Position numbers and translations under genes: made by a program | Part shown: positions 7,490 to 37,587 of the stretch, piece by piece | Numbering within the stretch: the first letter of the stretch is position 1 | How the letters are laid out: each line of letters starts with the position of its first letter | From: Rhizophagus irregularis | Taxonomy: Eukaryota | NCBI RefSeq assembly: GCF_026210795.1 | Contig: NC_089430.1 | Coordinates: 6,014,001 to 6,078,000, forward strand | Direction of reading: 5' to 3' | Length of the DNA: 64,000 bases | Notes under the pieces: generated by a model | Told to the model about the DNA's origin: nothing | The model's input: the letters and a program-made list of their open reading frames with translations, nothing else | Databases searched by the model: none

Positions 7490-7597
7490 GTTTTATAAAA
7501 TTTGATAAAGAATCGGTTATAATTAATATATACTTTAAAATTTAACGAAACTTTGACAAATGAAGTCAATTTTTCTCTTGAAAATTAAAATTTTATG

Positions 7598-10989: not shown

Positions 10990-11104
10990 TTTTTGTTTGA
11001 GTTTTTATTATACTAACTTTTTTTCGAATTTTAGATTGTGAATTCGTCAGTTTTTTTTGGATTTTTTTTGAAAATTATGGGATTTTTTGTGAAATTGTGG
11101 ATTG

Positions 11105-11635: not shown

Positions 11636-12707
11636 TTGCGATTTAATTGATTTAATTAAAATAATTGGTAAATCAATCGAAATAAAATCGGTTTTAAAAC
11701 TTAAATTTGCTAAATTTCGTCAAAATTATTATGGTCGATTTTATTTATTTTTGCAAATCAGCAAATTAAATCAATATCGATTTTTAAACGAATAGTCGAT
11801 TGTTTATGACGAATTTCATTTGCATGGCAGGTTCGAATTTTATTGATATGTACAGCCGACTTTTTTAACTAATTCTGAAACTTTGCCAATTTCTAATTGC
11901 AAGTAGCAGGCGTTACAGTGCAAATCATCCATAAAATTAGTTGCCAATTTTTTTGGTACTGATCGGCTAATGTCAGACCAAATTTTGTCCAACATTCGGC
12001 AATTTAAAATTTTGCTGAAATGGACTATTCTGACCAGTGTTTTACTTTGTAGGTATCAGATTCACTCTGGACACGTAAATTTTGAAGAAGTTTGCAAAAC
12101 TTCTTAATTTTTTTTGAAATTTAACTTTATTTTTTCTTTTATTTTATAGATGTCGGCTTTGGCTCTTGCACGGCATGTTAGATAGGCAGGTTTTGAAGTT
12201 TCATTATGAAACTTCTTTATTTTTTTTAAAAAATTTAATTAATTTTTTTTTCTTTTATTTGTAGATGTTGGCTTTGATTCTTGGATGTTGGATAGGTCGG
12301 TTCTGAAGTTTTATTTCGAAACTTCTTTTCAAAATTTTTTTTAAATTTAATTAACTTTTTTTTCTTTTATTTGTAGATACTGCTTCGATTCTTTAACTTT
12401 GAATAGGTGGGTTTCAAGGTTTCATTGCGAAACTTCTTTATTTATTTTAAAAATTTATTTAATTTTGTTTTCTTTTATTTGTAGATGTCGACTTCGATTC
12501 TTGTATGTTGAATAGATGGATTTCGAAGTTTTGTTTCAAAATTAATTTCTTTTTAAATTTTATTTAACATTTTTCTTTTATTTATAGATATCGGTTTTAG
12601 ATTATTAGATGTTGGATGGGTGAGTTTTGAAGTTTCGTTTTAAAACTTTTTTTCAAAATTTTTTTTAAATTTAATTAACACTTTTTTCTTTTATTTGTAG
12701 ATGTCAG

Positions 12708-12951
12708 TAAGATTGCTTGTCTAAACCTCTTCAAAATCCTATGATTAGTTTCATCAAAATTTTACTATAGATTTATTATAGTTTTGGCAGAGTTTTGGCA
12801 GTTTCAGCATTTATAATAAGTTTCGGCAGTTTCGCCTTTCTCCAAAGTTTTGCCAGTTTTTTAATATAACTTTAATATAGTTTCAGCAGAATTTCGCTTT
12901 TCGGCGAAATGCCATCTTGCCTAAACCCCTAGGTTTCGGCAAGCAACCTTA
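12708..12951 (+). mobile_element. hAT-type MITE, 244 bp, copy 1
   Basis: TIR TAAG(G/A)TTGCTTG...CAAGCAACCTTA; 8-bp TSD GATGTCAG. Confidence 0.9.
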
Positions 12952-13272
12952 GATGTCAGCTTTGATTCTTTAACTTTGGGTAGGTGAGTTTTGAAGTTTC
13001 ATTTCGAAACTTTATTTTTTTTAAATCTTTATTTTTTTAAAATTTTTTTTCTTTTAATTGTAGATATCGACTTTGATTCCAGGGTATCAGATATGTAAGT
13101 TTCGAAGTTTTACGAAACTTTAATTTTTTTAAAAATTAATTTAACATTTTTTTTTTATTTGTAGATATCGGTTTTGATTCTTTGGCTTTGGATAGGTGGG
13201 TTTCAAAGTTTCATTTTGAAACTTTAATTTTTGAAAAATTTAATTGATTTTTTTTTCTGTTATTTGTAGATA

Positions 13273-14234
13273 CAGTCAACTCCCTCTATAGTCACTCCCG
13301 TTATAGTCACATTCTACTATATAGTCACACCAGTTGAATGTTCAAAACACTTTATTATTAAAATCTATCCTATATAGTCACAATCTATCTATAGTCACTA
13401 TCACACCTATCCTCAAAAATCTTATATTAAAAAGAACCGTTTATAATCACAGTTATATAAAGAATATATTAAATAACTTGGCATCTAATAATCGTACAAA
13501 GATGTATCATAGCTTGTTAGAATCGTCTTACTGAGACGAATCGAATGGTGGTAGTTTTATCCTTTTCCGATCACTGGCTGACGGGTTATTCAACAAAATG
13601 TTAAGCATCGGCATTATAATATTTCTTGATTTACATTTACTGCGCCATTTAACATTTTGCTAGATTTCTCGGTACCTAGTGATTGTAAAAAGACGATTTT
13701 TAGCTCGTTTGAATCGCCTCATCGAGACGAATCGAATGGTGGTAAGCTCATCTCTCTGTGATCAATATTGACGGAGTTATTACTTAAAAACCATTTAATA
13801 TTTTTTTAATTTCGGAAATTGATCTAGTGATTGGATTTCGATGTATCATATACCATTAGATTCGTCGCATCAAGACGAATCGAATGGTAGTAAGATCGTC
13901 TTTCTAGGATCAATATTGACAGAGTTATTACACAAAAACCATTAATATTTTTTTAATTTCGGAAATTAATCTAGTGATTGGATTTCGACGTATTTTATAC
14001 CATTAGAACCGTCTCATCAAGACGAATCGAATGGCGGTAAGATCATCTCTCTACGATTAATATTGGCGAAGTTACGATACAATAAAGTTTTAAGTATAAT
14101 TCTGGCTAAAATTATGTTAATTTTTGGCCGGAATTATGATATACAAATATAAGAAATTTTTTATATAGTCACATCTCTTTATAATCACCAAATATGGACT
14201 GTCCCAAATGTGTGACTATAAAGAGAGTTGACTG
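13273..14234 (+). mobile_element. Tc1/mariner(pogo)-type non-autonomous element, 962 bp, copy 1
   Basis: TIR CAGTCAACTC(C/T)CT(C/T)TATAGTCAC; TA TSD; near-identical inverted copy at 18457-20061. Confidence 0.9.
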
Positions 14235-14817
14235 TATCAGCTTCATTGGATAGGATGAATTTTAAAACTTTAAAAAACATTAATTCTAGGCGTGATAAAC
14301 ATGAAATTTTGGTGAGTTTTTAATAGATCTATTATTTAATGAAAATTTACTTACATTTCTTTTTTTTTTCATTTTTTTAGGTAACTAGTTTTCGGACCTT
14401 TGGATGTGTAAATTTCTTTTGTAGATATAATAGATAAATATTAGATAGGATATTAGATAAGATATTAGATAGGATATTAGATAGAATATTGCAATAATTA
14501 TAATAAATACAATTTATACAAATTTCGGAATAAAATCATAGACCTATCAGTATACAATACATATAATGATCATACAAGTATCATACAGGTATTATTGAAG
14601 TATATAGATACCGATATGAGTATGATATCTATACAATATTTTCATGATATTTATAAACCGATATGTAACTTATATGTAATTTATATGTAACTATCTCTTC
14701 CATTAATCGGTGCCATATCGGGATTACTAATCCGGAGATATCAGAATACGATATATGGATTATCAGGTGATTATCAGGTGACTGATATATTACCGATATT
14801 CCATCATTTGACCAGTG

Positions 14818-16439: not shown

Positions 16440-16524
16440 TGAAAAGGAAGCTCTAGTACTTGGTGTCGACTACATAACAGAAGAGGAGGCAAAGAACTGG
16501 ATCAGTCCAAATGCACGTAAATCC
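16440..16524 (+). pseudogene. 5' piece of the substrate ORF that continues at 32514
   Basis: EKEALVLGVDYITEEEAKNWISPNARKS joins in frame across TSD TCC to R*RIKTWGARLQKHWKELDLG. Confidence 0.7.
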
Positions 16525-16987
16525 CACTAGTTAAATGAAGAGCTACCGGGTAAATTTCATATACCTGATAGCCCTATTATTTATTTTCGATTTTAATCTG
16601 AATGGGAGCTGATCAGTCCACCTGATTTGTGACCAGTTCTCGGCACAGATCAGGTATAAGTCATGTGACTTTTGGGTCAAGCAGCATTGGGTAAGTGTAA
16701 TATGAATATCGAAAGAATTTTAGCAATCTGATATCTCTCTTAATCCTTACCGAACTGTCTATAATATCAGTTGCATATTTGCTACATCGAAACCTGATTT
16801 CTTATTATTCTTATTATTTATTTATTTTATATACATTATTTATTTATTTATTTATTTATTTAAACGTATATTTTTTATTTCATTATTATACATAAATTAC
16901 ATTTATTTATCCTATTTTATCTATCTACATTATGTTGTTAATGGTTTGGAACATTGTTCCAGTTAGTTCGATTCCAGAAAATAACTA

Positions 16988-17418
16988 CAGTCAAACTTCG
17001 ATATACTGATACTGTCGGGACAGGAAAAAAGTATCGGTACATTGAAACATCGGTACATATATATTATCTGTAAATTATAATGCGGGCCAAAATCTAATTT
17101 TAGCTCGCACTATGCTTAATTCCGAAAAACCAAAAAAATATGATTTTGCCAGACGCTCGAATTATAAGTTTACAATTTTTTTAACTCGAGCCAAACCAGC
17201 CCAAATTAAAACCAGTGTAACCTAAATTATTGGTACATCTTTATTATACGTTACTATAAAGGGACAAAGAAAGAGTATCGTTACATGTTACATCGCGAAA
17301 CTATATATAATATCGGTACAACAAGGTTTTTTTATTAATTATGAAATGGGATAATTGAAATTTATCGGTATAGACCATTTATCGGTATATAGAATATCGG
17401 TACATCGAGGTTTGACTG
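16988..17418. mobile_element. Tc1/mariner-type MITE, 431 bp
   Basis: TA|CAGTCAAACTTCGATATACTGATA...TATCGGTACATCGAGGTTTGACTG|TA. Confidence 0.85.
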
Positions 17419-17419
17419 T

Positions 17420-18202
17420 ATTCAATTCTTTCGAAATGGTGTCCAGAATCTACAAAAGAAATAAAGTTTCGTTATAGAGAAATAAAGAAAAAAAGAAAAA
17501 CTCAATCTTGAAGCTTTACCTTCGAACTTTCACTTTTTAGGTCCCAGGTTTCCATATAGAAAAGAAAAATAAACTTTAGCAAACGTTTGTTAAAAACAAA
17601 ATAAAAAAAATGACATTTTGAATTGTCACTTTCGAAATGTTTGAAAGGAAACTGGGACCTAAAAAATAAAATAAATAAATGTTAGTATAACATTTGTTAG
17701 AAGAAAGTAAAAAAAATTTGAAGTATTACCTTCGAAATTCTGCGTTCAGAAAGTTGAAAACCTACAAAAAGAGAAAACAAAATGTTGAAACATTAGTCAA
17801 CATTTCGTTTAAATAAATATAAAAAAAAACAATAGTCTTCGAAGTTTTACCTTAATGGCGGTTGGGTTCCTACAAAAAGAATAAAAATGAAACATTAGTA
17901 CGTTTCATTAATAAAATATAAAAAAAATAAATCTTTTTGAAATTTCAACTTTGAAATGGGAACGCTTCGACTTCCTGATCCTAAAAAAAGACACGAAACA
18001 TTAGTACCTTTTCGCTAAAACAAAAATAAAAAACAAAAAAATAAAATGATAAAGAATAACTTCGAAATTCCATCCAATAGAGTTTCAGAGAGCTGAATAC
18101 CTACAAAAGAAAAACTGAAACGTTAGTAACATTTTGCTGAAATAAATCAAAAAGATAAAATAAAATAAAAAATAAAATAAAAAATCAATGTTACCTTCGA
18201 AA
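17420..18202 (-). repeat. Micro-exon/intron-like array of element D, downstream half
   Basis: Minus strand: ...TTTCGAAG|GTAA...ACTAAC...TTTTGTAG| repeated about 7-8 times with diverged exons. Confidence 0.75.
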
Positions 18203-18998
18203 TAGCACTGGTCAAAATTGATGCTATCGGGTACATATCGGGTACCTATATATCAGTGACTAATCAGATACATATCGGACATTTATTACATATCGGGTAC
18301 CCGATATGTAACATATCAAATATGCCTAAAAATCGGATTTCCGATATCTAAACGATTAGTCACCGATATGTAACACTGAATCAATCTTACACATATCGGG
18401 TACCGATATGCAAAATATTTATTTATTGTATTTGTATTATATAATTCAAAGAGGTACAGTCAACTCTCTTTATAGTCACACATTTGGGACAGTCCATATT
18501 TGGTGATTATAAAGAGATATGACTATATAAAAAATTTCTTATATTAGTATATCATAATTCTGGCCAAAAATTAACATAATTTTAGCCAAAATTATACTCA
18601 AAACTTTATTGTATCGTAACTCTGCCAATATTCCAATATTAATTGTAGAGAGATGATCTTACCGCCATTCGATTTGTCTTGATGAGACGGTTCTAATGGT
18701 ATAAAATACGTCGAAATCCAATCACTAGATTAATTTCCAAAATTAAAAAATATTAAATGGTTTTTAAGTAGTAACTCCGTCAATATTGATCACAGAGAGA
18801 TGAGCTTACCACCATTCGATTCGTCTTGATGAGGAGATTCCAACGAGCTATTAATCGTCTTTTTACAATCACTAGGTACTGAGAAATTTAGCAAAATGTT
18901 AAATGGCGCAGTAAACGTAAATCAAGAAATATAATAATGCCGATGTTTAACATTTTGTTGAATAACTCGTCAGCCAGTGATCGGAAAAGGATAAAACT

Positions 18999-19765
18999 TT
19001 TGGCTGTGTCAGAATGTTCTTTTCCATGCTTGGGAGGAGTCGCAGGGTATCTCGGCTGCTTCCAAATTATGTAGCCCATCTACTAATTCTTTCCCTAATA
19101 CTACTTCTCCACAACAACACAACTCTTCTTTGGCGTCAGTTTCTCAGGATTCCTGGATTTCTTGGATATCCTCTTCTATAATTCGGGGTGGATCTTGGAT
19201 CTCGCACTTGGATTTTCTGCGCCGCTTAACAGTTCAACCTCTTAGGATTTCTTTCTGGTAACGGACTGGATTTTTGGATGTTGGATAGTTGACTCACACT
19301 GGCCTTCGGGTAAAGTTGGGGTATGCGTAAGGTTGCTTGCCGAAACCTAGGGGTTTAGGCAAGATGGCGTTTTGCCGAAAAGCGAAATTCTGCTGAAACT
19401 ATATTAAAGTTATATTAAAAAACTGGCGAAACTTTGGAGAAAGGCGAAACTGCCAAAACTTATTATAAATGCCGAAACTGCCGAAACTCTGCCAAAACTA
19501 TAATAAATCTATAGTAAAATTTTGACGAAACTAATCGTAGGATTTTGAGGAGGTTTAGACAAGCAACCTTAGGTATGCGATTCTGTAATAGTTCAGTTTT
19601 TCTTTGCTTTAAATTTTTTTAGTTTAGATTTCTTTACTTGTATGAGTCGTGAAGCTACTCTTTTTATTTTTTATTAGTTTATTTTCTTATTTTTGTAATA
19701 TTGTTCGATTACTTTTCGAAGTCTAAAGTATAAATAAAAGATAAAGTCATAAGACTGTTTGCACA
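18999..19765 (+). mobile_element. 5'-truncated non-LTR retrotransposon 3' end
   Basis: 16-bp TSD GGAAAAGGATAAAACT (18983-18998 and 19766-19781; single in copy 1). Frame WLCQNVLFHAWEESQGISAASK...ISFW* (19001-19261) resembles fungal LINE ORF2 C-termini. Confidence 0.75.
19328..19571 (-). mobile_element. hAT-type MITE, 244 bp, copy 2
   Basis: Same TIRs; 8-bp TSD GGTATGCG. Confidence 0.9.
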
Positions 19766-20340
19766 GGAAAAGGATAAAACTACCACCATTCGATTCGTCT
19801 CAGTGAGACGATTCTAACAAGCTATGATACATCTTTGTACGATTATTAGATGCCAAGTTATTTAATATATTTTTTATATAACTGTAATTATAAACAGTTC
19901 TTTTTAATATAAGATTTTTGAGGATAGGTGTGATAGTGACTATAGATAGATTGTGACTATATAGGATAGTTTTTAATAATAAAGTGTTTTGAACATTCAA
20001 CTGGTGTGACTATATAGTAGAATGTGACTATAACGGGAGTGACTATAGAGGGAGTTGACTGTATATTAAAATTATTACTAAAAAAAGTATTTTAATATTA
20101 AAGATAATCGTTTATTCATATAAAACCCCTTATTTTCAATTTTTTTTTATTTTTTCTGATATCACGAATAACTGACGAAAATATTAAAAATATACATATT
20201 TTATTTTAAAATTAATTGGATTGAATGTTCAAATTAATCTTACATACAACTTTATTTTAATCAATTCGTATAAATGCCAATTGATAAGAATAACCTAATA
20301 AAAGTATTTAATCATAATATTTAATTATTTTTATGTTTTT

Positions 20341-21482
20341 TTACCCCCCTTTTTTTGCTTTTTTTGTTTTTTTTATTTTTATTTTTTTATTTTCATATTC
20401 ATCGTTATGATATTCGTCACTTTCTTCATCTTGATCAGTATTATAATCATATGTTGGAATTTCATTTGTTGAATGATTAAATCTTTTAAGAGCCTCGTCA
20501 GTCAGACACCAATTTGGTGTATCCACTGGAGGCATACTTGTTGTTGTTTTACATCTTTGAACTCTTTTAATTTTTAGAATTCGAGGTTTTTTCCTCAGTT
20601 TTTCAACGGTCAGATCAATCCGATCATGTAATAAACGCTGAAGCTTTAATAAATAATTACTATTGATAAATAAAATAAAAAAAATAATCATAAATATATA
20701 GTACATACTGCAGAAGAACGCCACCATGTTTTATATATATGAATTGACATTGTCTTTTCTTTAACAGCAGATTCTTCACCAATTATATCATTTTCTTCAT
20801 CAGAATCAGTTTCCTCCCACTCCTCTGAATGATAACCAGATTCCTTAAGAATTCGTACAAGCTCCTTCTCCGGGTATCTACGAATGTATTTATCATTATT
20901 TTCTATTAAATAGTTTGCCGCTTGAGCTCTTCTTTTTTTTTCTATAATAATAAATAATTATAAAATTAAATAAAATTAACTAAATTCCCACTTCATATTA
21001 ATAAAATGGTTACTAACGTCCATAGTTCTTGAATTCTTCTTTAATCTCCTCCTATCCATTTTCACTTTGTCGTCTCCTTGCTTCTTTATATTGCTTACAT
21101 GATGGCGTGAACGCCAACGTCCATGTAACATCTTTAAGATGTCACTATTCGAAACATTATACTTTTTGTTGACTAACTTATAAAGCGGTGGAAGTAATTT
21201 TGTAATTATATTTTCTTTTTGTTCAAGCCACGTACGATCACTATCGATCTCATATATATCCTTAAATTCAGAATCTATCCAGATAAAGACTTCTTTCTAT
21301 AAATAATAAATAAACGTAAATATTTGGGAAAATTCAATGACAGATAATAAAAAAATACTTACTTTAATTGTTCGATACATATTTTGATTCAAATGAATAG
21401 CATTGTCTGACAAGGACGAAGATGAATAGGTAGAAGATGATGAGGAAGATGAGGAGGTAGATTCTTGATCACTATCCATCAT
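20341..21482 (-). CDS. CACTA accessory (partner) protein, multi-exon
   Basis: Spliced frame includes KKRRAQAA..SGYHSEEWEETDSD..TWWRSSA|LQRLLHDRID..PPVDTPNWCL; homologous to 8425-10989. The 5' end is uncertain. Confidence 0.6.
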
Positions 21483-21961
21483 TGCCTACTTTGATTGCTT
21501 TGATTAAGAAGAGGAATTTGTGAAAAAAGATTTGTGAGCAAATTTATAGATTTCGAAGTTGTTGAGATTTGACTACGCGAATGAGTAATGCGAGATACAC
21601 GAATGAGTGACGTGAGATATGCGAACTTGATTTTGAAGAACTGCATGCGAATTTGATCTAAAAGAATAATTAAACGTTTATTTTATCTTACCAAAAACGC
21701 GAAACTGATTTTGAAATAGGAATTAAACGCGAAACTAATCTTAATCTTAAGGAAAAATTGAACGTGTATCTGATCCTAAAAGAAAGGTTGAACACGAAAT
21801 TGAAGAATTGAACGCGAACTTGTTCTTGATCCTAAAAAAGTGATTGAAGAACCTGATTTTGGAAAAATTGAATTGATAATTTTTTTGAAAATTTTTTAAT
21901 AAGCGTACTTCATTTAAGTAATTGTAACCTTAACTTTCTTAGCTATTTCATAAAATACAAA

Positions 21962-24900
21962 ATGAATAATAAAAAAAGTAAAATTGAAACCTTTAACTCC
22001 GTGTCTGATTTAGTAAAACACAAAAAAAGTAAAATTGAAACCTCTACCTCTGTTTCTGATTTAGTAAAACCCAGGAAAAGTAAAATTGAAACTTCTGCCT
22101 CCGTGTCTGATTTAATAAAATCCAAAAAAACTAAAATTGAAATCTCTACCTCTGTATCTGATTTAATAAAATCTAAAACGGCCAATTCAATAAAATTAAA
22201 AAAACCAAAAATGGCCGATTTAATAAAACCCAGAAAAAGGTATTTGTATCCATACCATTGTATTCGTTGTGACGGCACAGAGGTTGATTTTCGCACTCAA
22301 GAAAATCATACAAATGATGAAAGTTTGTGGAACTCAGAGGATACTAGGAAAAATCAGGAAGATACTATTACAGCGAGAAAACAAAAAAGATTAATCATTA
22401 TTCAAGATGTAAACCTTACAAAAAAGCGAAAAAGGGCATCAAGTTCTAATCTTGATTCTTCCCAACATAATAGTGGCTTTAATCGTTTCAATGAAGATAC
22501 TGATTCATTCCAACCAAATAATAATGAAAACATACATACATTATTTTCATCATCACCATTATTGCCAAATCCTTCTTATTTTCATGTTCCAGCACCTGAT
22601 GAAAATAAGAATAACGATGAATATATATATTACAATGAAGAAGAAGAAAATGATGATAATGAGGATGATGGTGATGAGGATGACAGTGATGAGGATGACG
22701 GCGATGAGGATGATGGCGATGAGAATAATGGTGCTGAAAATAATGGTGGTGAAGATGAAGGTGATTATAATGAAGAAGAAGATGATGATGATGATGGAGA
22801 TGATGAGGAGGAGGAGGAGGATATAGAAGAATTTTTTTCATCTCCTGAAATTGGTAATGATGAAGTATTTGTGATGGAAAGTTTAAATGATTCTATAGAA
22901 ACCAAAATTATTCTATGGGTATTCAAATTTCAACAAAGATTTAGACTTCCAGATATAGCACTTGAAGTATTAATAAAATTCTTACATATTGTACTTACTC
23001 GTTTAGATAAATCACAATTTAAAAATTTTCCAGCATCCTTATATCTTGCAAAAAAAATGTTAAATATCTTTCAACCAAAAATGCAGTTAGCTGTATGCAA
23101 CAATTGTCATAAATTGTATAATGTTAGAAATATTGTTGAATACAAAGAAGAAGGAAAAGCTGCTATTGCAAATTGCCTACATGAAGAATTCCCAGATAAT
23201 CCAGTACCTAGTCGTCGTAATAAATGCAACAATCCACTTTCTATTCTTAAAAAAAGAAAGGGTAAAATAATTGCTGTACCTCGTATGATTTACCCTAAAC
23301 CAAGTATTCGTCAGCAATTAAGTATGTTATACCAACGACCTGGGTTTGAAGATATGCTGGAATTATCAGGAATTCAAAGAGGAGGGGTTAATACCTATTC
23401 AGATATTTATGATGGTAAGGTATGGAAAACTTTCCCATTTAATGGTGATACCTTCTTTACACCAGAAACTGCGACAACACACCTGGGCCTTCTCTTTAAT
23501 CTTGATTGGTTTCAACCTTTCACCTATACTCAACACAGTGCTGGTGCTATTTACGCGTCTATCTGTAATCTTCCGAGAACAGAAAGGAATAAACCCGAAA
23601 ATATTATTTACTTAGGTTTTTTGCCAGGACTGAAAGAAGTAGGGTTGGAACGTATTAACCATTATTTAGCCCCTATTGTGGATGAGCTTTTAGAACTCTG
23701 GAAGGGCTGGAGAGTTCCAAAGACCTACCAATATACTGAAGGTTTAGACATAAAAGTTGCATTAATTATTGGATCATCAGATACACCAGCAACACGAAAG
23801 TTATTTGGGCATGGCTCAGCAGTAATGAAATGTCATAGGTGTGAAAAGCGTAGTACTTATAGTGAAGTTTATAAAAAAACTCATTATGGAGGAATGCAAG
23901 AATATGATAAATGGATAACAAATCCCATAAATCCTTCATTACATAGGCAATATGCTCATGAATGGTTGCAATGCAATTCGAAGTCCTCCAGAGATACACA
24001 TTTTAAAGAACATGGTGTAAGGTGGAGCGAGTTGCTTCGCTTACCATATATGGATCCCATAAGATTTGCCGTGGTGGATCCAATGCATTGTTTTTTTCTA
24101 GGTATAGCAAAATGGATAATCAAATCCATTTTCATTAATCAAAATAAGTTAAGCATGGAGCAACTTCGAATTGCACAAAAGAGACTGGATTATATTGAAT
24201 TACCTTCTGATATCGGTAGAATCCCCCAAAGATTGCAATTGGAAATGAAGGTTTTTCAAATTTAACTGCTGATCAATGAAAAACCTTTATTATGATTTAT
24301 TCCACGCCTATACTATGGGACATGCTAGATAATAATGATAGAAAAATCTTAGGACATTTTGTTCGAGCATGTAATCTTTTAGTAGCAAGATTTATTACAG
24401 AAGATGATCTGAGAGAAGCGCAAGAGAGGTTGAAGGACATGGCTCACCTTATAGAAAGAACATATGAGCCAGAATTTATAACAAGCAACATATACCTTGC
24501 ACTTTATATTTCCGACTGTTACCGTGACTATGGTTTCATATATAGTTTTTGGCTTTTTCCATATGAGAGACTTAATGGATATATTGGTAAGATGTTTGTT
24601 GTTATGTTAATATTTTTTAAAAATAAAGAATACAAATAAATCTATTATTATTATCCAGGATCATACCCTAATAGTAATCGACAAATAGAGCCTGAACTTA
24701 TGCGAATCGTTCTTAAGAATACTTTAATAGATTATCATTTATCTTATAAATGGTCATCTGGTCTTCTAAAAAAATCTCTTAGTCTTATTATGCCAAAACA
24801 AGCTGTGGGTAGTTTGGCATTTACGGCAGAAAAGGATGAGTTACAACACTTTTTGTCCATGAGACATAATACATCTACGTTTTCCAAAATATATGGTACT

Positions 24901-25476
24901 GAGAAATTACCGGGTCAAATGCTTAATCCTTCGTGTTTCAAAGTTATGATACCTTTAGAATTGCGTAGATTTCTATGTGAATGGTATTCTATATTATATG
25001 AAAAAGAACAAAATAAAGTATTAGGATTTATGGACCTGGTAATTGATCAACACGTAAGATTACAAATTGGTGCTGAAATATTTGGATCTATGATTTCGGG
25101 TCATCAAGAAAAAAATGTAACTATTCTTGCAAAATGGAAAGCGTCTAATGATGATTCAGTTGATATATACCCAGGAGATGTTCAATATTATTTTGAACAT
25201 ACACTTAGATTACCTGAAGGACCAAGAAAACATCTTTTAGCATATGTTAAGTGGTATAAAAGTGCACCTTCCTCTGATATCCGGTTTAAACATAGATTCA
25301 TAGAACCAGAGATATCAAATACCGAACTATGGCAAGCTGAATACTTTCAGGAAGGTTGTGATTCAATAATAGCTGTTCATAGAATACTATGTAGAGCTAC
25401 AAAATTCAAAAGTGTGTGCGTAGGAAAAAGGAAATATTTGTCAATAATACCATTAAATAGAAAATTTAATTTATAG
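21962..25476 (+). pseudogene. CACTA/CMC transposase (Transposase_21-like core) with a frameshift and a premature stop
   Basis: CNNCHKLY, DIYDGKVWK, NLDWFQPF, SDTPATRK, DPMHCFFLG, FWLFPYERLNG. Frameshift ~24230, TGG>TGA ~24277, intron ~24588-24658. N-terminal 16-aa repeats (KKSKIETSTSVSDLVK) and an acidic tract. Confidence 0.9.
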
Positions 25477-26328
25477 ATTTCTTTAAAAATTAACATTTCA
25501 TTGTATTACATTCGATAATAAAGGTAATACGGTCATACAGAATACAATAATAAAATTTCCTTTTATAATAATTAAAATTGATCATCACACCAAAATCATA
25601 AATTGCTAAATTTGTTAAGTGACAATATTAAATTTTGCTCGTAGACAAAGTCAAAATTAACCTTATATAGAATAAAGATCTACCGATGATTAATTCGCGA
25701 TTAATATTTAATTATGCAAACGCAAATTTTTACAATTACTTTACAATTAAAATTGATTGTATGCAAATCATGTACGAAATACATTAACATTATTAAATAA
25801 CAATCATTGGTATCATACCACACCGATAATCGGTCGGTGTCGGTCATAATTGTATTTGTAAAAAAATAAAATTTAAACAAAGACTGATTTAATAAATTTA
25901 TAAATTTTTTTCTCGTGACGTTCACTCAACTTGCAAGGAGAATATTTAATTTATTTACGCTGGATATATTATAGTTCTTAAAATTGTTTTCTGTATAATG
26001 AATTTAATGATATAATACTTGTATCATTTAATTGTGTAATACCTGTATCAATCAAACATATCAATTTAATTGATTACTTTAAAACTGATTTTTTTAAGAG
26101 TATACAAAATTATTTCTCTGATTCGTAATACAGAAATAATAGAAATAATCACAATTAAGATCAAATTATATTATGATTATGCGCAGAAAAGTGGTATATT
26201 TTTTTACATAAATAAGGCAATTATCGAATTTTTTTTATTTATCTTTTTAACCCAATTTTTCATCATAATAAATCAATCTTTTTAACCCAATTTTTTATCA
26301 CAATAAATCAATTTTTTATTTATAATAA

Positions 26329-27075
26329 ATGGCCAACCTTAATATTTTAAACGTCAACATAAATAACGTACTTTCCAACTGGCCGTTCGATGCCACCAGG
26401 GCATTAATTAGGTAAATTTGTATAACTGATAAATCTTACAATAAAAAAAAATGGAAAGTTAAAATGGTAACTTTATTTATACTAATTAGATACTGGCGCT
26501 TGTACCATAATGTTTTCAAGGATCGTTCGATCCGAGATCATTCAATAATATGGGCAAAAATAGCTAGGAGAATAAGCAACAATTATAACTTTATTGTCAC
26601 CCAAAATCAATGCCGCAATAAATGGAGGGCATTGAAGAGAGGTGAATCTTTTACCATTTGTAATTAATTTGTGAATATTAGTAAATACTTTATTAATATA
26701 TTTAATTAATAATAGGTTTCGAAAATTTGACTAGGATTAATAATGGTTTGTATATTTGAGGTTAACGTTAAATTTCTTAACCAATTCACATAAAACCAAT
26801 TTTATTTATTTTAGGGAATCCTGATGGTCACCCGATCCACTCTCCCAACAATTACGATATTCGCTTTTTTAATGAATTAAGCGATGAATTCTGGCTGCAA
26901 ACTAGTAATTGATTCGATTTTAATTATGATACTTTGTATATATTACTGATTCATTAAATTTATATTTACATTTTTTTCTTTTTATTTTAGACAGGTTACG
27001 CAGGGCGTACCTGCAGCAGAGAGTAGATCGATGGACCTATAGGTATAGGGAACGATGTCGGCGTCATTCCTGAAG
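26329..27075 (+). CDS. Small multi-exon Myb/SANT-like (trihelix-type) DNA-binding protein inside CACTA element E
   Basis: Spliced frame NWPFDATRALIR..WAKIARRISNNYNFIVTQNQCRNKWRALKRGFENL; tryptophan spacing typical of Myb/SANT-like domains. Confidence 0.7.
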
Positions 27076-27079
27076 CCGT

Positions 27080-27110
<31 letters not shown>

Positions 27111-27507
27111 GCAGTAGCAGCGATCGGAGGAGGAGAAGAAGAAATAGAAGAAGAAGAAATAGAAGAAGAAGAAATAGGAATTAAGGTAAATACTAATTAA
27201 TCATGAATTTATAATTAGATGGATATATATCACTAATGCGTAAAACTATAATCTTATTCCATGAATTTTGTGAAAAATAGACCCTCCCTTCCTTTTGTTT
27301 TCCCTTCCCTTCCTTTCCCCTTCCCCTTCCCCTTCACTTTCGTTTCCCCTTTACCTTTCGTTCTCCCCTTTCCCTTCCCCTTCCCTTTCGTTTTCCCCTT
27401 TACCTTTCGTTCTCCCCTTCCCCTTCCCCTTCCCTTCCCTTTCGTTTTCCCCTTCCCCTTCCCTTACCTTTCGTTTCCCCTTTCCCTTCCCCTTTTTCTT
27501 CCCTCCT
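27075..27507. repeat. (AGC)n and (AGA)n microsatellites plus a ~225-bp (CCCTTC)n polypyrimidine tract
   Basis: Directly visible; explains the spurious Pro/Phe-rich ORFs. Confidence 0.9.
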
Positions 27508-29074
27508 GAAATCGTCATTTTTAATCTTTTATTTTAGTTTATTATTTTTATTATATTTTTTATTATAATAATAAACAATATTCTTATATCAAATTTTCTT
27601 ATTTTTTAATATAATATTGTTAATTGGTTTTTGATTTTTGAACTTATAAAAAACAACTGATAAATATAAAAGCTATGCGGGTAAACAAAAATGATAATTC
27701 TTAATCTTCATTATTATGCCATCTAGAATCTATATAATTAAAACATTTAGTCTGTATAAATAAATTATAATTGCGACCATCGCCCGTGATCTATTATAAG
27801 CTTATTAATCAATTAATACCCGATGCAAAGCAGCGGCTAAATTTATTCATATTGGATATTGGATGTATATCACGTATGATTATTCAATCAGATTATTTTG
27901 AAATATAAATTTATCAACGTAATTTTATTTATGTCACGTCGATGTTGTTTAAGATAATAAAAAAATTAATTCTGTAATATTTAAAAATATTAAAAATGAT
28001 ATAAAATTATATACATAAATAAAAAAAATTCTCAATAATCATTAATAAGTTCGTCCAATAAATAATTACATCAATAATATTATAAATCAACTTAATTCTC
28101 CAATAACAGATAATCATCATTGTTATTGATATATTAACCAATTAGGATCATTATGATTACATGCATGTGATATCTAAAAATAGATAAAATCGTGTGATTG
28201 TTTTTTTGTTTATTTTCAATTCTTTTCTTATTAAAACTTACAAAAATGTACCATTCAAAAGAAAAGAATAAAAGAAAGGAAATAATATGCCCACCTACCC
28301 ACATACAAAAAAGAGAAAAGCTGATTTAAAATAAATAGTGAAGCTGTTAAGCAAGGTATGAAAATAGGATATACACGTATTTTTCATATCTTTCTTTACA
28401 ATATGTTGTGGTTTGAGTCCTTCTTTGTGGTATAAATGTGAATATATTTTTCAACGGCCATGTATCTATTGCTTGTTAAATATATTTGCAATTTCTTGTC
28501 TTTCTTTGTTAGACTGTGGTATTACAATATGAAGTGTGAATATATTTTTCAACGGCCATGTATCTATTGCTTGTTAAATATATTTGCAATTTCTTTTGTA
28601 ATATTTGCTTTAGCCTGGAGGAAAATGTTATGAAATAGGGCTGGATATTTTATGACATTTTCTGCCTTCCAATTACTTTGTCCGGGGTAGCCTGACAATT
28701 TGTCGTTGTCCGTCAGTTGTAGCAACCAGCATTTTTTTACAATATTATGATTTTAAGAAACAAAACTTTTTCAAAAATTTAATAAAGAAAGAACTAACTT
28801 AAAAATATTATTTTATTATTCTTTACAAAATGCTGGCGCTGGAGTTATTTTTTCTCTCACTTATCAAATCCCAACATGTCCAAAGACTAATCATGTAGTA
28901 CGCTGTGGTCTGGAACACCCGAGGTTTTTGACTACCTAGGGATGAAGTTGTAGGGTACTCCTGCCCGATAGGCTAGCCTCCTCTGACTTAGGGTCTCATT
29001 AATCGGGAGAAGAGGTGGTTCCTAAGTACCTTCCACATCAAGAGCGGACATTTTTTGATACTGTACATCAAGGC

Positions 29075-29318
29075 TAAGGTTGCTTGTCTAAACCTCTTCA
29101 AAATCCTACAATTAGTTTTGTCAAAATTTTACTATAGATTTATTATAGTTTAGGCAGAGTTTCGGCAGTTTCGGCATTTATAATAAGTTTCGGCAGTTTC
29201 ACCTTTCTCTAAAGTTTCGCCAGTTTTTTAATATAACTTTAATATAGTTTCGGCAGAATTTCGCTTTTCGGCGAAACACCATCTTGCCTAAACCCCTAGG
29301 TTTCGGCAAGCAACCTTA
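29075..29318 (+). mobile_element. hAT-type MITE, 244 bp, copy 3
   Basis: Same TIRs; 8-bp TSD ATCAAGGC. Confidence 0.9.
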
Positions 29319-30462
29319 ATCAAGGCGGTAATCCTATATCTGCGAATTCAAGAAAAAAAAATCTAAATCAAAAGAATTTGGAACCAACACATGTCAAGGT
29401 AATTTAAGCATTCTTTTTAAAAAAATTTAATCAAAGATTAATTTGGTTTATATACAGTAAACCCAAGGAAAAAGAAGATATAATGTATTTTCAGAAGAAT
29501 ATGATAGTAACGCATATCAAGGTAACTTAAATATTTATTTTTTATTTTATTAAAAAAATATAATAACAAGATCTATTTTCTCTTTAAATAGCAAACTTCG
29601 AAAAAAAGAGGTGGAATAAAACTGGAATAAATATAAAGGTATATTTTTTACTAATTTTTATTTATATTATTAATATTTTTTTTAACACTCTTTCTTTTTT
29701 CTAATCTAACGTTTGTTTCTACTAATACTACTAAACATACTAACATTTTCTATCCATTTTATTTTTCTTTTTTTTTATTAACATTTTCTAATACCATTCC
29801 TTTTCTTTAACAATTTCGTTTAACATTATTCATACTAATATCTTTATTACTAAAATACTTTACTATTTCTATTTCTTTCTTTTAAATATTAAACAGATAA
29901 AAATATGCAGCAAATAAGTGAACACATTATTTTACACATAATTCTAATTTTTTATACAGCTAGAATAATTTTTATGATTTTTTGTAATTTTATTTATTTG
30001 TAATTAATTAACAATTAAATAAATAAATTAATATTATAATTGAATTTAAATTATAAATTTATTAGCATTCATATTATTGCATTAAATAAATATTATTTTT
30101 GATATGCGTTCAATAATAAAATCAGTAAATTATAGCTATTAGCCTATTAAGCCTATTAGGTATACTTCGGACATGTATATCGGCACTATCTGATAAATGT
30201 ACGATATCTATCCGATATTTTACTATAATATATCGGGTATCTGATAAATCTATGATATGTGATTGATATTTGACTACCCGATATGTATAAGATATGTACA
30301 TGATGTTTACAATATATGTCACCGATTTTCTACATTTTTACTATACTTATCAGGCACCCGATATATGTAGTATTGTTAAATATCATACACATATATCACA
30401 TATATTGCACACATATCGGGTACCCGATATGTACCCGATAACCTTGATTTTGACCAGTGTAG

Positions 30463-31770
30463 GTCTAGGATCAGCTCCTTTAGTATTCTGGACCTACAAA
30501 AAATAAGAACGAACGTTAACTAACGTTTGTTAAATAACATTAATAAAAAAAAGACTTTTGAAGGAAATACCTTCAAAATGGAGTCCAGCAGCGTCCTAAC
30601 TTACAAAAAATAAAAGAAAAACGAATATTAGTATAACGTCCGTTAAAAAATAAAAAAAATCATTTCAAAATTTTACCTTCGAAATGGAATCCGGTGACAT
30701 CTTAGATCTACAAAAAATCAAAACAAATATTAGTTAATGTTCGTTAAATAAAAATAAAATAAAGTTTTTCAAAGTTTTACCTTCAAAATGCCGTCTGGGA
30801 AGCCATGAACTTACAAAAAGAGAAAATCGAAACGTTAGTCAACATTTCGTTTAAATAAAAAACAAAGAAATAAATTAATAAGCCAAAGTTACCTTCAAAA
30901 TGCGCATCTTCGGTATTCCAGAATAACAAAAAATAAGAACGAACGGGATCTGGAATCTATAAATAAAAGAAAATAGAAGGTTAGTACATATCTACACGCC
31001 TTCTATTTAAATTAAAGTTTTTTTATAACTTACCAGTTATAAATGGTATCCAAAATCTATAAAAAATATTATATTGGTATTTCTTATACACGTATGTGTA
31101 ATTCCTGACCATCTACAAAAGAAAAAATGAAATGTTAGTAGCCATTTCATTAAAAGAAATTAAATAAATTAAGGAAAAAAAATATATTACGTTTACCGTA
31201 TCAAAATCTGCACCTAAAAAGAGCCATTCTTCTCTTTATTGCTAGAAAGCTAAAAAAAAGGAAGAAAACGAACTGTTAGTAAAGTTCGGCAAGTTAAAGA
31301 CCATTAAAAAACATTTTTACTTACCGAGATCCCAAGTCTAAACTCCAAGAAGACCAAAAAAACTGCCTAAAAAAAAGAAAAAAAGAACTGTTAGTAACAG
31401 TTCATTTTAAAAGTAAAAATTAAGGAAAAAAAATTATTACTGAAATCAAAAATATGAAAGAACCGTTCGCTATCAGGACCTAAAGGAGGGAAAAAGTCAT
31501 AAATTAGTATAAATACAAAACAAAAGAAAAATATACAATACACGAAAAATAAACTTACCGATTCTTTAAAATTTTACCCGAAATCTAAAATAAAAAAAAA
31601 ACGTAAGCTTTTAAAATTGAAACAAAAAAGCAAAAGGAAAAAACTCTTTGACTTACCTATTCTTGTAAATTGCCGGTAAGGTTGAAACTACTCTAGAATT
31701 CCGATTCTAAAATAAAATGAAAAATTAACTTTTTTTAAAAAAGCTTATTTCAACCTGTTTGGAACTTATC
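30463..31770 (-). repeat. Micro-exon/intron-like array of element D, upstream half
   Basis: About 12 units on the minus strand with GTAAGT/GTAAAA/GTAATA donors, ACTAAC branch points and YAG acceptors. Confidence 0.75.
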
Positions 31771-32513
31771 CAGGACTCTGAAATTAAAGTTTATAGTCTT
31801 GAAAATAGTTCAAAAATATACTTAGGGCTCTAAAATCCAAGTCTTCAGAGCCAGTTTAAAAAAACGCTAAAGAAGCATTTTTTAAAGGAGTCTCAATTGC
31901 CCGCTTTAAAAATGAAAATAAAAGGTGATGATAACCTTTATTTGGTTAGAGGGCATTCATAACCATAATTTTATTATTGTTGGAACTGAAACTGCAGGAC
32001 ATATATTAGAGATGATTTATAATGTCCCAAACATTAATATTTCCAAAATTCGTTTCGAAATTCAACTTCGAAACTTTACCATAAAGAAGAAGAAAAAAAA
32101 AAATTCCAAAACTTACTTTATTTAAGCTATTAATAAAGTCTAAATTCGGCTAGTAGAAAATAGACAGGATCAGTGATCTCCCAAAAATATATCGTTAACT
32201 AAACTTTAAAATAAGAATTTTTCTTAAAATCATGTGATGCTTAATTTCGACAAAGTATTTTTTTAAACGTGAAAACATAAATAATGGGGATTTATCAGGT
32301 GATCTTATAAAAACTCAGAATTTACCTGATTATTATTCTTTGTAGGTATCAGGTACTGTAAGTTAAATACCATATGATATATAAACAATAATCAATTATA
32401 TGATAATAACCTGATATAACTTATCAAGTTTCAGGCAAATATCGATTCCTAATTTATCCTGATACTTGTTCTGAAACTTGATAACCTGAAATTTCTTTAT
32501 TCGACTAGTGTCC

Positions 32514-33203
32514 AGATAGCGAATTAAAACATGGGGAGCAAGATTGCAAAAACATTGGAAAGAATTAGATCTAGGTGTTGAGCCATTTGAAGCTAATGAT
32601 CTAGATGGATGCCTAACACTTTTCCATGATCTTGAACTAAATGATCCAGAGGCAGTTCGCCTACCAACATTAAAAGAGTTAGAGAAATATAAAAAGATAT
32701 CAGAGCCTAAAGCTGGCCCTAAACTTAGAACACAAGCTCATAGGAATGATAAATCTAAGAATTTGATTAATAAAGAATTTGAGTGCTTAGGAGAAATTAC
32801 TGATGAACAAGAAAGAGACCTAGAATTTAGGGAGCAAGAAGAATTAGGCACGGCACTCAAAAGAAGAGCTATAGCAGTACATCGTGCAAAAGTTCACCAA
32901 TCTTATCCTAATAATAGAAGTGATATATGAAAATTTTTAGAAAGCTGAAGAAAGCAATTCAGAGAATTACTTGAGAAAGAATTTGATAAGCGTAGGCAAT
33001 TTAAGTTTGCTTTATGCTTACTAGCTAAATTTCTCCTAGATGATAAGCCTGGAAATGAAAACAAAAAAAGTTTGAGAAGTGATTGGTTATGAAATAAACA
33101 AATTATAGTTTACAATTGAGCTGAAATTGATGATTATTTAAGTGATGCTTTCAAACAAATAATATATCTGGTAGAAGAAAGAGGAGGTAAGTCTAATGCT
33201 TAA
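32514..33203 (+). pseudogene. Substrate ORF resembling Polinton/adintovirus-associated proteins (similar to the region N-terminal of pPolB)
   Basis: ..RELLEKEFDKRRQFKFALCLLAKF..NKQIIVYN*AEIDDYLSDAFKQI..EERGG; several stops; tail-to-tail with the integrase. Confidence 0.45.
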
Positions 33204-33510
33204 GTATCCATTGAGGAGGTAATTGTGCATCCTTTACAATTTGGAGTTCTTCTTTTACAAATGAGCATCTAGGAATATTGTAAAGCTTATAGAGAATAGG
33301 TTGATTTTCTTTTATCAAATAAGAATCAATTGTAAAAACTTCGGGAGACCAATTGCAATCGGTTGTCCTTCTTCTACCACCTTCTAATTCACTGGGTTCT
33401 AATAGATGCCGAACTTCAGTATAGCTAAGTAAAAGTGGTTTATTATAACCAACTGGTCTCCTATGTTCAACAGAAGGTCTAGCTATTATTTTTTTACCTT
33501 TTAATGCCTT
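33193..33510 (-). pseudogene. Polinton/Maverick-type integrase, C-terminal piece
   Basis: KALKGKKIIARPSVEHRRPVG..VRHLLEPSELEGGRRRTTDCNWSPEVF..PRCSFVKEELQIV..*; joins in frame to 45182 (KAVK|KALKG). Confidence 0.8.
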
Positions 33511-33597
33511 CCCAGTAAAAAGTCATTGTATAAAAATCGTGCAGTTTTTGTTTTATTTTTGTAATAATTATCTAGTTTTTGTTTAGTATTTATATAA

Positions 33598-34698: not shown

Positions 34699-37587
34699 CA
34701 CTCGTCGAACGATGTCAAATCGGGAATCAATCAGGTGACCGAATTCCACCTGATTGGTCCCTATTTTTTTAAAAAATTTTATCAATCGGTAAACCCGATT
34801 GCTGTCAAAAGATGGCGCAAAAGGAGGATACTCGGGTACCAATCAGGATATTCAATAGAGTATAATCGGGTATTAATAGTTACCAATAGGATATTTACTG
34901 GATATTTACTATTTGACATATCAGTATACCGATTGATAACTTTTTGATAAATTTATAACAATAAGAAATCTGCCGATTGCATACATTTTTATTTAAATTT
35001 ATTTGATATTTTACAATAATTACATTTAATAATTTAAATTTATTAATTATTAAAAATACAAAATCAGAAATACTACTAATACTGAAATTTTATCTGGAAT
35101 CCGGTATACAGGTTGGAGCAAATTCCCTACAAAAGAAATAAAAAAACATTAAAAAAAGTTTTTTAAAAAAAGTTTCAAAAGTTAAAACTTACTTATGGGA
35201 TTCCGGTATATACATCTATCAGAGCCAATTCCCTATAATAGAATAATAAAAAAACGTTTATTACCGTTTTTTTAATAGTTTCAAAAAAAAATTTCTGAAA
35301 CTTATTACTTATGGGATTCTATGGGATTCGTTATACCAATTCCCTATAATAGAACATTTAAAAAAAAAACGTTAAAAACGTTTTTTTAATAGTTTCGAAA
35401 AAATATTTTTCGAAACTTACCTATGGGATTCGTTATACCGATTCCCTATAAAAGAATTAAAAAAAAACGTTAACGTTTTTTTAATAGTTTTGAAAAAATA
35501 TTTTTCGAAACTTACCCATGGGATTCGTTATACCGATTCCCTATAAAAGAATTAAAAAAAAACATTAACGTTTTTTTAATAGTTTCAAAAAAATATTTTT
35601 CGAAACTTATCTATGGGATTCGTTATACTGATTCCCTATAAAAGAATTAAAAAAAAATGTTAACGTTTTTTTAATAGTTTCGAAAAAATATTTTTCAAAA
35701 CTTACCTATGGGATTCGTTATACCGATTCCCTATAATAGAATTAAAAAAAAACGTTAGTTAACATTTTTTTAAAAGTTTCGAAAAATATTTTCGAACTTA
35801 TCTATAGGATTCATTATAACCGATTCCCTATAATAGAATAATAAAAAAGTATTAGTTAACATTTTTTTAAAAGTTTCGAAAAATAATTTTTGAAACTTAT
35901 CTATGGAATTCGTTATAACCGATTCCCTATAATAGAATAATAAAAAAACGTTAGTTAACATTTTTTTAATAGTTTTGAAAAATAATTTTTCGAAACTTAC
36001 CTATGGGATTCGTTATACCGATTCCCTATAATAGAATTAAAAAAAAACGTTAGTTAACGTTTTTTTAAAAGTTTCAAAAAATATTTTTCGAAACTTATCT
36101 ATGGGATTCGTTATAACCAATTCCCTATAATAGAATAATAAAAAAACGTTAGTTAACGTTTTTTTAATAGTTTCGAAAAATAATTTTCGAAACTTACCTA
36201 TGGGATTCGTTATAACCGATTCCCTATAATAGTGTATTAGAAAAAAAACGTTAAAAACATTTTTTAATAGTTTTGAAAAATTATTTTTCGAAACTTACCT
36301 ATGGGATTCGTTCCTATAATTGAATATTAAAAAAATGTTTTAAAAAAACGTTAAAACATTTTTTAATAGTTTCAAAAAATTATTTTTCAAAACTAATCTA
36401 TAGGATTCGTTATAACCAATTCCCTATAATTGTATATTAAAAAAAAAAGTTTCAAAATTTTTTTTCGAAACTCACCTATGGGATTCGTTATAACCAATTC
36501 CCTATAATTGAATATTAAAAAAAAACGTTTTAAAAAAATGTTAAAACATTTTTTAATAGATTCAAAAAATTATTTTTCGAAACTAACCTATAGGATTCGT
36601 TGTAACCGATTCCTTATATTTGAATAATAAAAAAAAACGTTAAAAACGTTTTTTAATAGTTTCGAAAAATTATTTTTCGAAACTAATCTATAGGATTCGT
36701 TATAACCGATTCCCTATAATTGTATATTAAAAAAAAGAGTTTCGAAAAATTATTTTTCAAAACTCACCTATGAAATTCGTTGTAACTGATTCCCTATAAT
36801 AGTGTATTAGAAAAAAAACGTTAAAAACGTTTTTTAATAGTTTTGAAAAATTATTTTTCGAAACTAACCTATGGGATTCGTCCCTATAATTGAATATTAA
36901 AAAAAAACGTTTTAAAAAAATGTTAAAACGTTTTTTAATAGTTTCAAAAAATTATTTTTCGAAACTCACCTATGGGATTCGTTATAACCGATTCCCTATA
37001 ATTAAATATTAAAAAAAAAGTGAGTTTCAAAAAATTATTTTTCAAAACTCACTTATGGGATTCATTATAACCGATTCCCTACAATAAAATGTTAAAAAAA
37101 TGTTAAAAATCGTTTATTAATATCTTCAAATAAATGGTTTTTTCAGTTTAATAAAGTTTTGAAAGTAAATGTTTGAAACTTTTGTGGGATTCCGGTATCC
37201 AAATCGGAACCAATTTCCTAAAAAAAAAAATTTTTTTAAAAGTTTCAAAAGTAAATGTTTGAAAAAAATGTTAAAGATAGTATGAAATAGTTTAAACTTT
37301 TTTTTAAGTTTTAAAAGTAAATGTTCGAAAAAAATGTTAGTGTAAATTTCAATAGTATAAAATAGTTTAATTTTAGTTAAAGAAAAATAGTTTATCAATA
37401 GTCTAATTGAAACAATAGAAATCAATCAGTAAATTTAAACTGAACAATAGTTATCAATCGGGTATTAACCTGATTGATACCCGATTGAAGTGTACACCAA
37501 TTTCTAACTATTGAATAAATCAGGTGACCGATCAAAAAAAAAGTTACCAATCGGGTAGGTACCCGATTGGTCAGCGTTTTACCTGTG
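34699..37587. mobile_element. Non-autonomous CACTA-like element F
   Basis: AAA|CACTCGTCGAACG ... CGTTTTACCTGTG|AAA; CCCGATTG/CAATCGGG subterminal repeats at both ends. Confidence 0.65.
35085..37225 (-). repeat. Homogeneous tandem array (~22 units of 80-110 bp), each a 25-26-nt exon-like segment plus an intron-like spacer
   Basis: Minus strand: ACTAACG..TTCTATTATAG|GGAATCGG(T)TATAACGAATCCCATAG|GTAAGTTTCGAAAAATATTTTTCGAAAC. Confidence 0.9.

What the first reader, a model, noticed from the sequence alone, without database searches (positions are those of the whole stretch)
16930..31770. Diverged micro-exon ladder with conserved splice signals inside non-autonomous CACTA element D
Seen: once element E is removed, 31770->30463 and 18202->17420 form one minus-strand series of ~20 units. 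Each has a 25-50-nt exon-like segment (many ending TTTCGAAG), a GTAA(G/A/T) donor, an ACTAAC/GCTAA branch point and a pyrimidine tract with TAG, spaced ~70-90 nt. Exon and spacer interiors have diverged strongly while the three splice signals persist, and by eye the joined exons give no long ORF. Inference: selection for splicing itself in a transposon-borne, probably non-coding transcript, e.g. intron density that licenses the RNA as self and evades silencing, a spliceosome sink, or a source of intronic RNAs. I know of no description of this as a CACTA module.
Basis: partly seen in the sequence, partly recalled or inferred. Interest (0 to 1): 0.85.

Follow-up and report, generated by a model that had tools for sequence, protein, structure and literature searches.

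The report
Intron ladders inside fungal CACTA transposons
A non-coding jumping element in what is likely a root-symbiotic (Rhizophagus-type) fungus is filled with about 18 tiny exon-like pieces separated by textbook-looking introns, a layout repeated in three related elements, and it likely makes a heavily spliced non-coding RNA that would help the element pass as a normal gene, although no spliced read was found.

Summary
D spans 16525-32510 (CACTAGT ends, 3-bp duplication); E (18206-30459) splits one exon. With E removed there are 18 exon-like pieces (19-79 nt) and 17 intron-like spacers (70-94 nt): GT 17/17, AG 16/17, RCTAA 14/17. Strict units: 11 versus 0.25 in shuffles. No reading frame exceeds chance. 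The 3' eleven units are tandem duplicates (60% identical). The same ladder type fills CACTA element F (34699-37587), lies next to a third CACTA-type end (12040-14420), and occurs in a metagenome relative, so it is a recurring module. Selection for splicing is only partly supported. Core splice columns are conserved (0.88) against exon interiors (0.47), but two non-splice blocks are equally conserved (0.85, 0.88), and in the young F array the donor G survives in only 13/20 units. RNA laid on the 3' half gave no junction at 7 predicted introns and almost no reads of this copy; polyA reads from relatives carry unspliced introns. The 5' half was not tested with RNA. Best reading (0.4): a spliced non-coding element transcript, with this copy dead. 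Rivals: a neutral tandem array, or a DNA-binding array. Ten literature terms sets run (9 searches) found no description. Interest 0.55.

The parts
16525..32510 (-). Element D, non-autonomous CACTA-type transposon; about 3295 nt once E and the small insertion are removed; no ORF over 80 aa
   Evidence: TIR CACTAGT, 13 of 16 matching; duplication TCC; subterminal ATCGG/CCGAT-type repeats; core length and frames
30463..31780 (-). Ladder, 5' part: 7 weakly related units with near-consensus signals, then 3 whole duplicated units and the first part of the exon split by E
17428..18202 (-). Ladder, 3' part: rest of the split exon and 7 further duplicated units; more decayed signals (weak donors at 18060, 17949, 17629; broken acceptor near 17553; broken donor 17428)
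18206..30459 (+). Element E, a transposase-bearing CACTA element inserted into one ladder exon
   Evidence: TIR CACTGGTCAAAA, 14 of 16 matching; duplication TAG
21962..24606 (+). Transposase of E (PF02992), broken into several frames
   Evidence: Pfam 3e-11; best hits 87-89% identical, named Rhizophagus irregularis; tblastn pieces
16988..17418 (.). Small TA-flanked inverted-repeat insertion ending the ladder; mariner/pogo-like is a recalled label
   Evidence: ends read; many related contigs in run X9
16800..16986 (-). Likely terminal exon: a motif abundant in DNA and polyA RNA of relatives (16918-16976), followed by an AATAAA-rich tract
   Evidence: sequence; depth and loose ends; terminal-exon role inferred
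34699..37587 (-). Element F, a second non-autonomous CACTA-type element filled with a young ladder of about 20 units (35100-37200)
   Evidence: ends CACTC/CACAG, flanks AAA; alignment
12040..14817 (+). Ladder C (8 aligned units, about 105 nt, two small insertions) running toward a CACTGG-type end at 14817; its other end was not found

Best explanation
D is a non-autonomous CACTA transposon whose interior is a tandemly duplicated exon-plus-intron unit, and the ladder is likely the body of a spliced non-coding element transcript whose splice signals were likely kept because efficient splicing would let the RNA be handled as an ordinary mRNA rather than feed RNA silencing. Shown: element ends and duplications, the ladder, its origin by duplication (3' eleven units), lack of coding capacity, and recurrence in related elements in the same orientation. 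Inferred: transcription from the 32510 end toward the AATAAA tract near 16850; splicing; selection acting on mobile lineages rather than on each copy; and the benefit (less silencing, so more mobilisation by autonomous partners such as E's family). This copy is likely dead, being split by E and by a small insertion.
For: Core splice columns conserved at 0.88 versus exon interiors 0.47 (p 8e-6) and other intron columns 0.68 (p 0.001) across 11 paralogous units; columns are not independent, so the p values are rough. The seven 5' units have little mutual similarity yet keep GTAA donors 7/7, AG 6/6 and ACTAA 5/6 at 72-84 nt spacing. RCTAA in 14/17 ladder introns versus 0/6 hand-picked ordinary introns in the window, only 2 of which were confirmed by an open frame. 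Metagenome contigs L006/L030 share D's end (78% over 207 nt) and carry a ladder in the same direction, matching D only in short unit-sized pieces. Related ladder sequence is in polyA RNA: depth about 27 at 17857-17915 in X15 with depth 0 at the element end, the reverse of the DNA run's profile. In Cryptococcus, poorly spliced transposon RNAs are routed to RNAi (PMC5851062, passages), and R. irregularis has 40 AGO-like genes (PMC11075540, passage).
Against: No junction read at any of the 7 predicted introns in 16500-18260 in three RNA-labelled runs; reads at 99% or better were 0 of 179, 2 of 227 and 2 of 252 laid. Two stretches overlapping the first introns were skipped as repeats, and these strains may lack D. 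The relatives' reads that were seen are unspliced at these sites (17 and 12 reads run through an acceptor at 17874), in libraries that look unstranded. ATTTCG (0.85) and AACGAA (0.88) are as conserved as the core (p 0.88). In F the donor G is kept in 13/20 units, ranking 15th lowest of 94 columns. Several L006 units lack a branch motif or acceptor. The 5' units were defined by their signals, which is partly circular.
Confidence: 0.4

Rival explanations
1. Neutral cargo: an ancestral element picked up or contained one ordinary exon-plus-intron piece, which expanded as a satellite-like array. Signals look preserved because of shared ancestry, A/T mutation bias and repeated re-expansion; any splicing is incidental.
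For: 3' units are paralogous (60% identity). The young F array shows no donor protection (13/20). CpG-decay forms of the motifs are common, e.g. AACGTT 5 versus AATGTT 9 and AACATT 6 in D. CACTA elements with internal tandem arrays are known (PMC8978399, passages). No spliced reads.
Against: G and C splice columns outlast exon-interior columns about two-fold. The barely related 5' units keep all three signals at intron-like spacing. The layout persists between elements whose ends are 78% identical.
Confidence: 0.28
2. DNA-level array: the repeated CpG-centred words (TTCGAA, AACGAA, AACGTT) are binding sites for an element-encoded protein that keeps the element unmethylated or aids transposition, as VANC motifs do; the splice signals ride along in the duplicated unit.
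For: Non-splice blocks are as conserved as the splice core. TTCGAA-type words recur in D, F, C and L006. VANC target motifs accumulate by tandem repeat formation in non-coding parts of VANDAL elements (PMC5735166, passages). E carries a second, intron-containing gene of unknown function.
Against: Does not explain why the seven 5' units, which lack the ATTTCG tail, keep donor, branch and acceptor. No binding data and no VANC-like protein was looked for.
Confidence: 0.14
3. The ladder is spliced poorly on purpose or by decay and acts as a small-RNA trigger or spliceosome decoy that restrains the family.
For: Relatives' polyA reads retain introns. In 5 of 12 duplicated units the donor sits in the loop of a predicted hairpin of -4.3 to -9.7 kcal/mol formed by the exon tail and the intron start (no shuffle control). 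SCANR precedent (PMC5851062).
Against: Branch motifs are closer to consensus than in ordinary introns nearby, which favours efficient splicing. A selfish element gains little from triggering its own silencing.
Confidence: 0.1
4. A micro-exon protein-coding gene making short variable peptides by exon skipping.
For: Exons are GC-richer than introns (0.38 versus 0.21). One metagenome ORF (P0121, 62 aa) resembles a ladder frame.
Against: Only 5 of 18 exon lengths are multiples of 3. The best stop-free path with free exon skipping is 403 of 689 nt versus shuffled median 353, 95th percentile 460. P0121 reads through an intron, is a singleton 'hypothetical protein', and has no longer relatives or Pfam match.
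Confidence: 0.05

Closest known systems
Non-autonomous CACTA (CMC-EnSpm) elements of Rhizophagus irregularis
   Same: CACT-type ends, 3-bp duplication, subterminal repeats; the superfamily is reported as present and expressed (PMC8647823, PMC11075540; passages).
   Different: Neither main text contains the words 'intron' or 'splic'; the interior ladder is not described there. Their repeat libraries were not visible to me.
Tgm-Express1 and other gene-capturing CACTA elements
   Same: A CACTA element carrying exon/intron pieces that are spliced (PMC1947982, abstract).
   Different: Tgm-Express1 holds five unrelated host gene fragments; here one unit is duplicated, has no coding trace, and no exon matches elsewhere in the window above chance.
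CACTA elements with internal satellite arrays (Chenopodium Jozin)
   Same: Tandem array inside the element, near one end (PMC8978399, passages).
   Different: No splice signals were mentioned in the passages read; here every monomer is one exon plus one intron and the monomers have diverged to about 60%.
VANC target arrays in Arabidopsis VANDAL elements
   Same: Short motifs amplified by tandem repeat formation in non-coding element DNA (PMC5735166, passages).
   Different: Different superfamily; acts through DNA binding; no protein partner is shown here.
Cryptococcus SCANR pathway
   Same: Links splicing efficiency of transposon RNA to RNAi (PMC5851062, passages).
   Different: A host defence, not an element module; the ladder would be the counter-move. 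Not shown in Glomeromycota.
Micro-exon genes of flatworms (recalled, no paper read)
   Same: Runs of very short exons.
   Different: Those are coding with in-frame exon lengths; here 5 of 18 lengths are in frame and there is no ORF.

Membership tests
CACTA/CMC-EnSpm, non-autonomous (element D) | Terminal inverted repeats beginning CACT | tested here: met
   CACTAGT at both ends, 13 of 16 matching
CACTA/CMC-EnSpm, non-autonomous (element D) | 3-bp target site duplication | tested here: met
   TCC on both sides; flanking frames continue in register with one stop
CACTA/CMC-EnSpm, non-autonomous (element D) | Subterminal short direct and inverted repeats | tested here: met
   Seen at both ends by eye; motif count passed the threshold at the 16525 end only
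CACTA/CMC-EnSpm, non-autonomous (element D) | No transposase of its own | tested here: met
   Longest stop-free frame in the core 80 aa
CACTA/CMC-EnSpm, non-autonomous (element D) | Several copies at different sites and an autonomous partner with matching ends | tested here: inconclusive
   14 of 24 listed runs hold part of the 5' half; a relative with a 78% similar end; no genome was available to count copies
Spliced long non-coding RNA | Junction reads at predicted GT-AG sites | tested here: inconclusive
Spliced long non-coding RNA | No coding capacity | tested here: met
Gene-capturing (Pack-type) CACTA | Internal fragments traceable to host genes | tested here: inconclusive
   No exon matches the rest of the window above shuffles; whole genome not searchable
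Micro-exon protein-coding gene | In-frame exon lengths and a continuous ORF | tested here: not met
   5 of 18 lengths divisible by 3; ORFs within chance
VANC-like anti-silencing target array | Motif bound by an element-encoded protein with local loss of methylation | not testable with these tools
   Only motif conservation was seen

The most novel reading that the evidence does not exclude
Glomeromycete CACTA transposons have evolved a dedicated 'intron ladder': a non-coding cassette, re-expanded again and again by tandem duplication, whose only product is the act of being spliced many times, which marks the element's RNA as self and keeps the copy out of the fungus's enlarged RNAi system. The donor-in-a-hairpin-loop geometry would tune it.
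Probability: 0.2. Interest if true: 0.85.

Novelty: new variant of a known kind. Interest (0 to 1): 0.55.

Why it matters
About a quarter of the R. irregularis genome is unclassified repeat (24%, PMC8647823). A CACTA cargo made of exon-intron monomers names part of it and would likely mislead gene finders into calling spurious orphan genes. If the splice signals are under selection, these elements are a natural experiment on whether splicing alone protects a transposon RNA from silencing: many copies, young and old arrays, intact and broken donors, in a fungus with public long-read RNA, small-RNA and methylome data.

Tried and rejected
No whole genome was available, so copies could not be counted or aligned. 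Run search with the 5' half: no RNA holder listed, which is no evidence either way. Metagenome motif scan: 42 loci, 2 true ladders (L006, L030, 99% identical to each other, so one family), 40 dropped as chance hits with no ladder units nearby. Viral contigs: 3 hits to a unit pattern, each with a single unit, dropped as chance; end motif 0 hits in viral and in prokaryote genome contigs. Rfam on 30400-37700: 0. Protein searches with a ladder frame: 1 unspliced singleton, no longer relatives, no usable Atlas hit (shows neither novelty nor absence). Exons as captured snippets (CRISPR-like spacers): longest matches in the window equal shuffles; 3' exon interiors are only marginally alike (49 of 1000 shuffles reached the score). 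L006 versus L030 has too few differences (10 mismatches in 1600 nt) for a selection test. The ordinary-intron comparison is weak: 4 of 6 introns were not confirmed by an open frame. Earlier scan findings: three answered look-ups, nothing shown. The flanking frame has no Pfam match, so I do not name it.
Full report
Setting. The window is A/T-rich and packed with transposon pieces. The transposase of element E belongs to PF02992 and its two best relatives, at 89% and 87% identity, are named Rhizophagus irregularis, so the source is likely Rhizophagus or a close glomeromycete. No whole genome was available.

The elements. A scan for paired CAC-type ends with a 3-bp duplication returned four pairs; two have CACT(A/G) ends with subterminal repeats: D, 16525-32510 (13 of 16 matching, TCC), and E, 18206-30459 (14 of 16, TAG). 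The other two pairs were weak and not pursued. D interrupts a decayed reading frame that continues in register across it with one stop. E sits inside one ladder exon. A TA-flanked insertion at about 16988-17418 ends the ladder. Without these two, D is 3295 nt with no stop-free frame over 80 aa, and the ladder is about 2.1 kb of it.

The ladder is real. Strict donor-branch-tract-acceptor units number 11 on the minus strand, 0 on the plus strand and 0.25 on average in 1000 shuffles. By hand there are 18 exons of 19-79 nt and 17 introns of 70-94 nt, with GT 17/17 (two by a 1-nt shift), AG 16/17 and RCTAA 14/17. It is non-coding: longest frames 73 and 89 aa under two exon definitions against a shuffled 95th percentile of 94, 5 of 18 exon lengths divisible by three, and no gain from exon skipping (403 nt versus shuffled median 353). 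A search of 1.84 billion representative proteins with a ladder frame gave one hit, a 62-aa singleton that reads through an intron.

Origin. The last eleven units are tandem duplicates, 60% identical on average; the first seven are only weakly alike. In the eleven, conservation is blocky: splice core 0.88, exon tail ATTTCG 0.85, AACGAA before the branch point 0.88, other intron columns 0.68, exon interior 0.47. The exon tail can pair with the start of the intron, leaving the donor in a loop in 5 of 12 units at -4.3 kcal/mol or better (no control).

It is a module. Element F (34699-37587; CACTC and CACAG ends, AAA flanks) is filled with about 20 young units, 82% identical. Ladder C (12040 onward, plus strand, 75% identical) runs toward a CACTGG-type end at 14817. 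Two of 42 metagenome loci, 99% identical to each other, share D's end at 78% and carry a ladder in the same direction. That makes four elements, three from one window, so its spread across species is unknown. In F, where units were cut without reference to splice signals, the acceptor is intact (AG 19/20) but the donor G is kept in only 13/20, among the less conserved columns; some of those losses may be one change copied several times.

RNA. Only the 3' half (16500-18260) was laid, with two polyA runs, one run of doubtful RNA label and one contig run that may be the window's own source. About a quarter to a third of each raw run was read. Reads at 99% or better were 0 of 179, 2 of 227 and 2 of 252. 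None of the 10 listed joints has intron-type ends at a predicted site, so 0 of 7 introns were seen spliced; the tool skipped repeats overlapping the first two. What was seen is relatives' polyA RNA lying on ladder introns (depth about 27 at 17857-17915 in X15, 0 at the element end, opposite to the DNA profile), running unspliced through an acceptor in 17 and 12 reads. Ladder-type sequence is therefore transcribed somewhere and is at least partly unspliced or antisense; the spliced share is unknown. The 5' half, with the strongest donors, remains untested.

Mechanism. I put most weight (0.4) on a spliced non-coding element transcript whose signals were kept in mobile lineages, with efficient splicing as the likely benefit. 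The main support is the barely related 5' units keeping all three signals, the persistence of the layout between diverged elements, and branch motifs closer to consensus than in nearby ordinary introns (14/17 versus 0/6, only 2 of the 6 confirmed). The link to silencing is borrowed from Cryptococcus (PMC5851062) and the 40 AGO-like genes of R. irregularis (PMC11075540); it is not shown here. A neutral array (0.28) explains F's donor losses and the missing junctions. A DNA-binding array (0.14) explains the conserved CpG words. A silencing trigger (0.1) and a coding gene (0.05) fit less well.

Literature. Nine full-text searches listed no paper whose title or abstract start describes such a ladder. 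Seen: passages of 10.1101/2022.10.19.511543, PMC8647823, PMC11075540, PMC8978399, PMC5735166 and PMC5851062; abstracts and outlines of PMC1947982 and PMC4938662; one supplement search of PMC11075540 (no 'intron'); the supplement list only of PMC8647823. The curated repeat libraries, Repbase and most subscription journals were not visible and may hold these families as consensus sequences.

Verdict. A real, recurring and apparently undescribed cargo of fungal CACTA elements: a new variant of a known kind. Its splicing and purpose are not demonstrated. Interest 0.55.

Noticed in passing
window 12032-12039 and 18206-30459: A CACTGG-type element end abuts the start of ladder C just as E sits inside D's ladder: two insertions of this end type into ladders in one window, possibly a target preference.
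   Followed up: no
window 16918-16976: A roughly 60-nt motif containing a short hairpin is very abundant in the DNA run (summed depth about 22,000 versus about 100-180 for identical pieces) and is the best-covered spot in all three RNA-labelled runs, with different upstream sequences.
   Followed up: partly
L006 1450-2290; window 11112-11644: Arrays of short repeats that look like acceptors only (T-tract plus TAG every 11-40 nt) with no donor or branch motif; in L006 they lie directly upstream of the ladder.
   Followed up: no
window 20340-21480, minus: E carries a second, intron-containing gene, divergent from the transposase, with a frameshift; the element near 6100-12039 has a similar arrangement. 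Candidate partner protein.
   Followed up: partly
window 35100-37200: F units are nearly all palindromic: exon and both intron halves can each form hairpins; unit lengths alternate in a higher-order pattern toward 36400-37100.
   Followed up: partly
window 12708-12951, 19328-19572, 29074-29318; 13262-14236 and its inverted relative in E: Three 94-96% identical copies of a 245-nt insertion and two copies of a roughly 1-kb TA-flanked element: recent small-element activity.
   Followed up: no
window 55950-62500: Large nested inverted structure with 44- and 99-nt tandem arrays on both arms.
   Followed up: no
L006 about 1510-1590 (minus): A tRNA-like stretch just upstream of the ladder, by eye only.
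   Followed up: no
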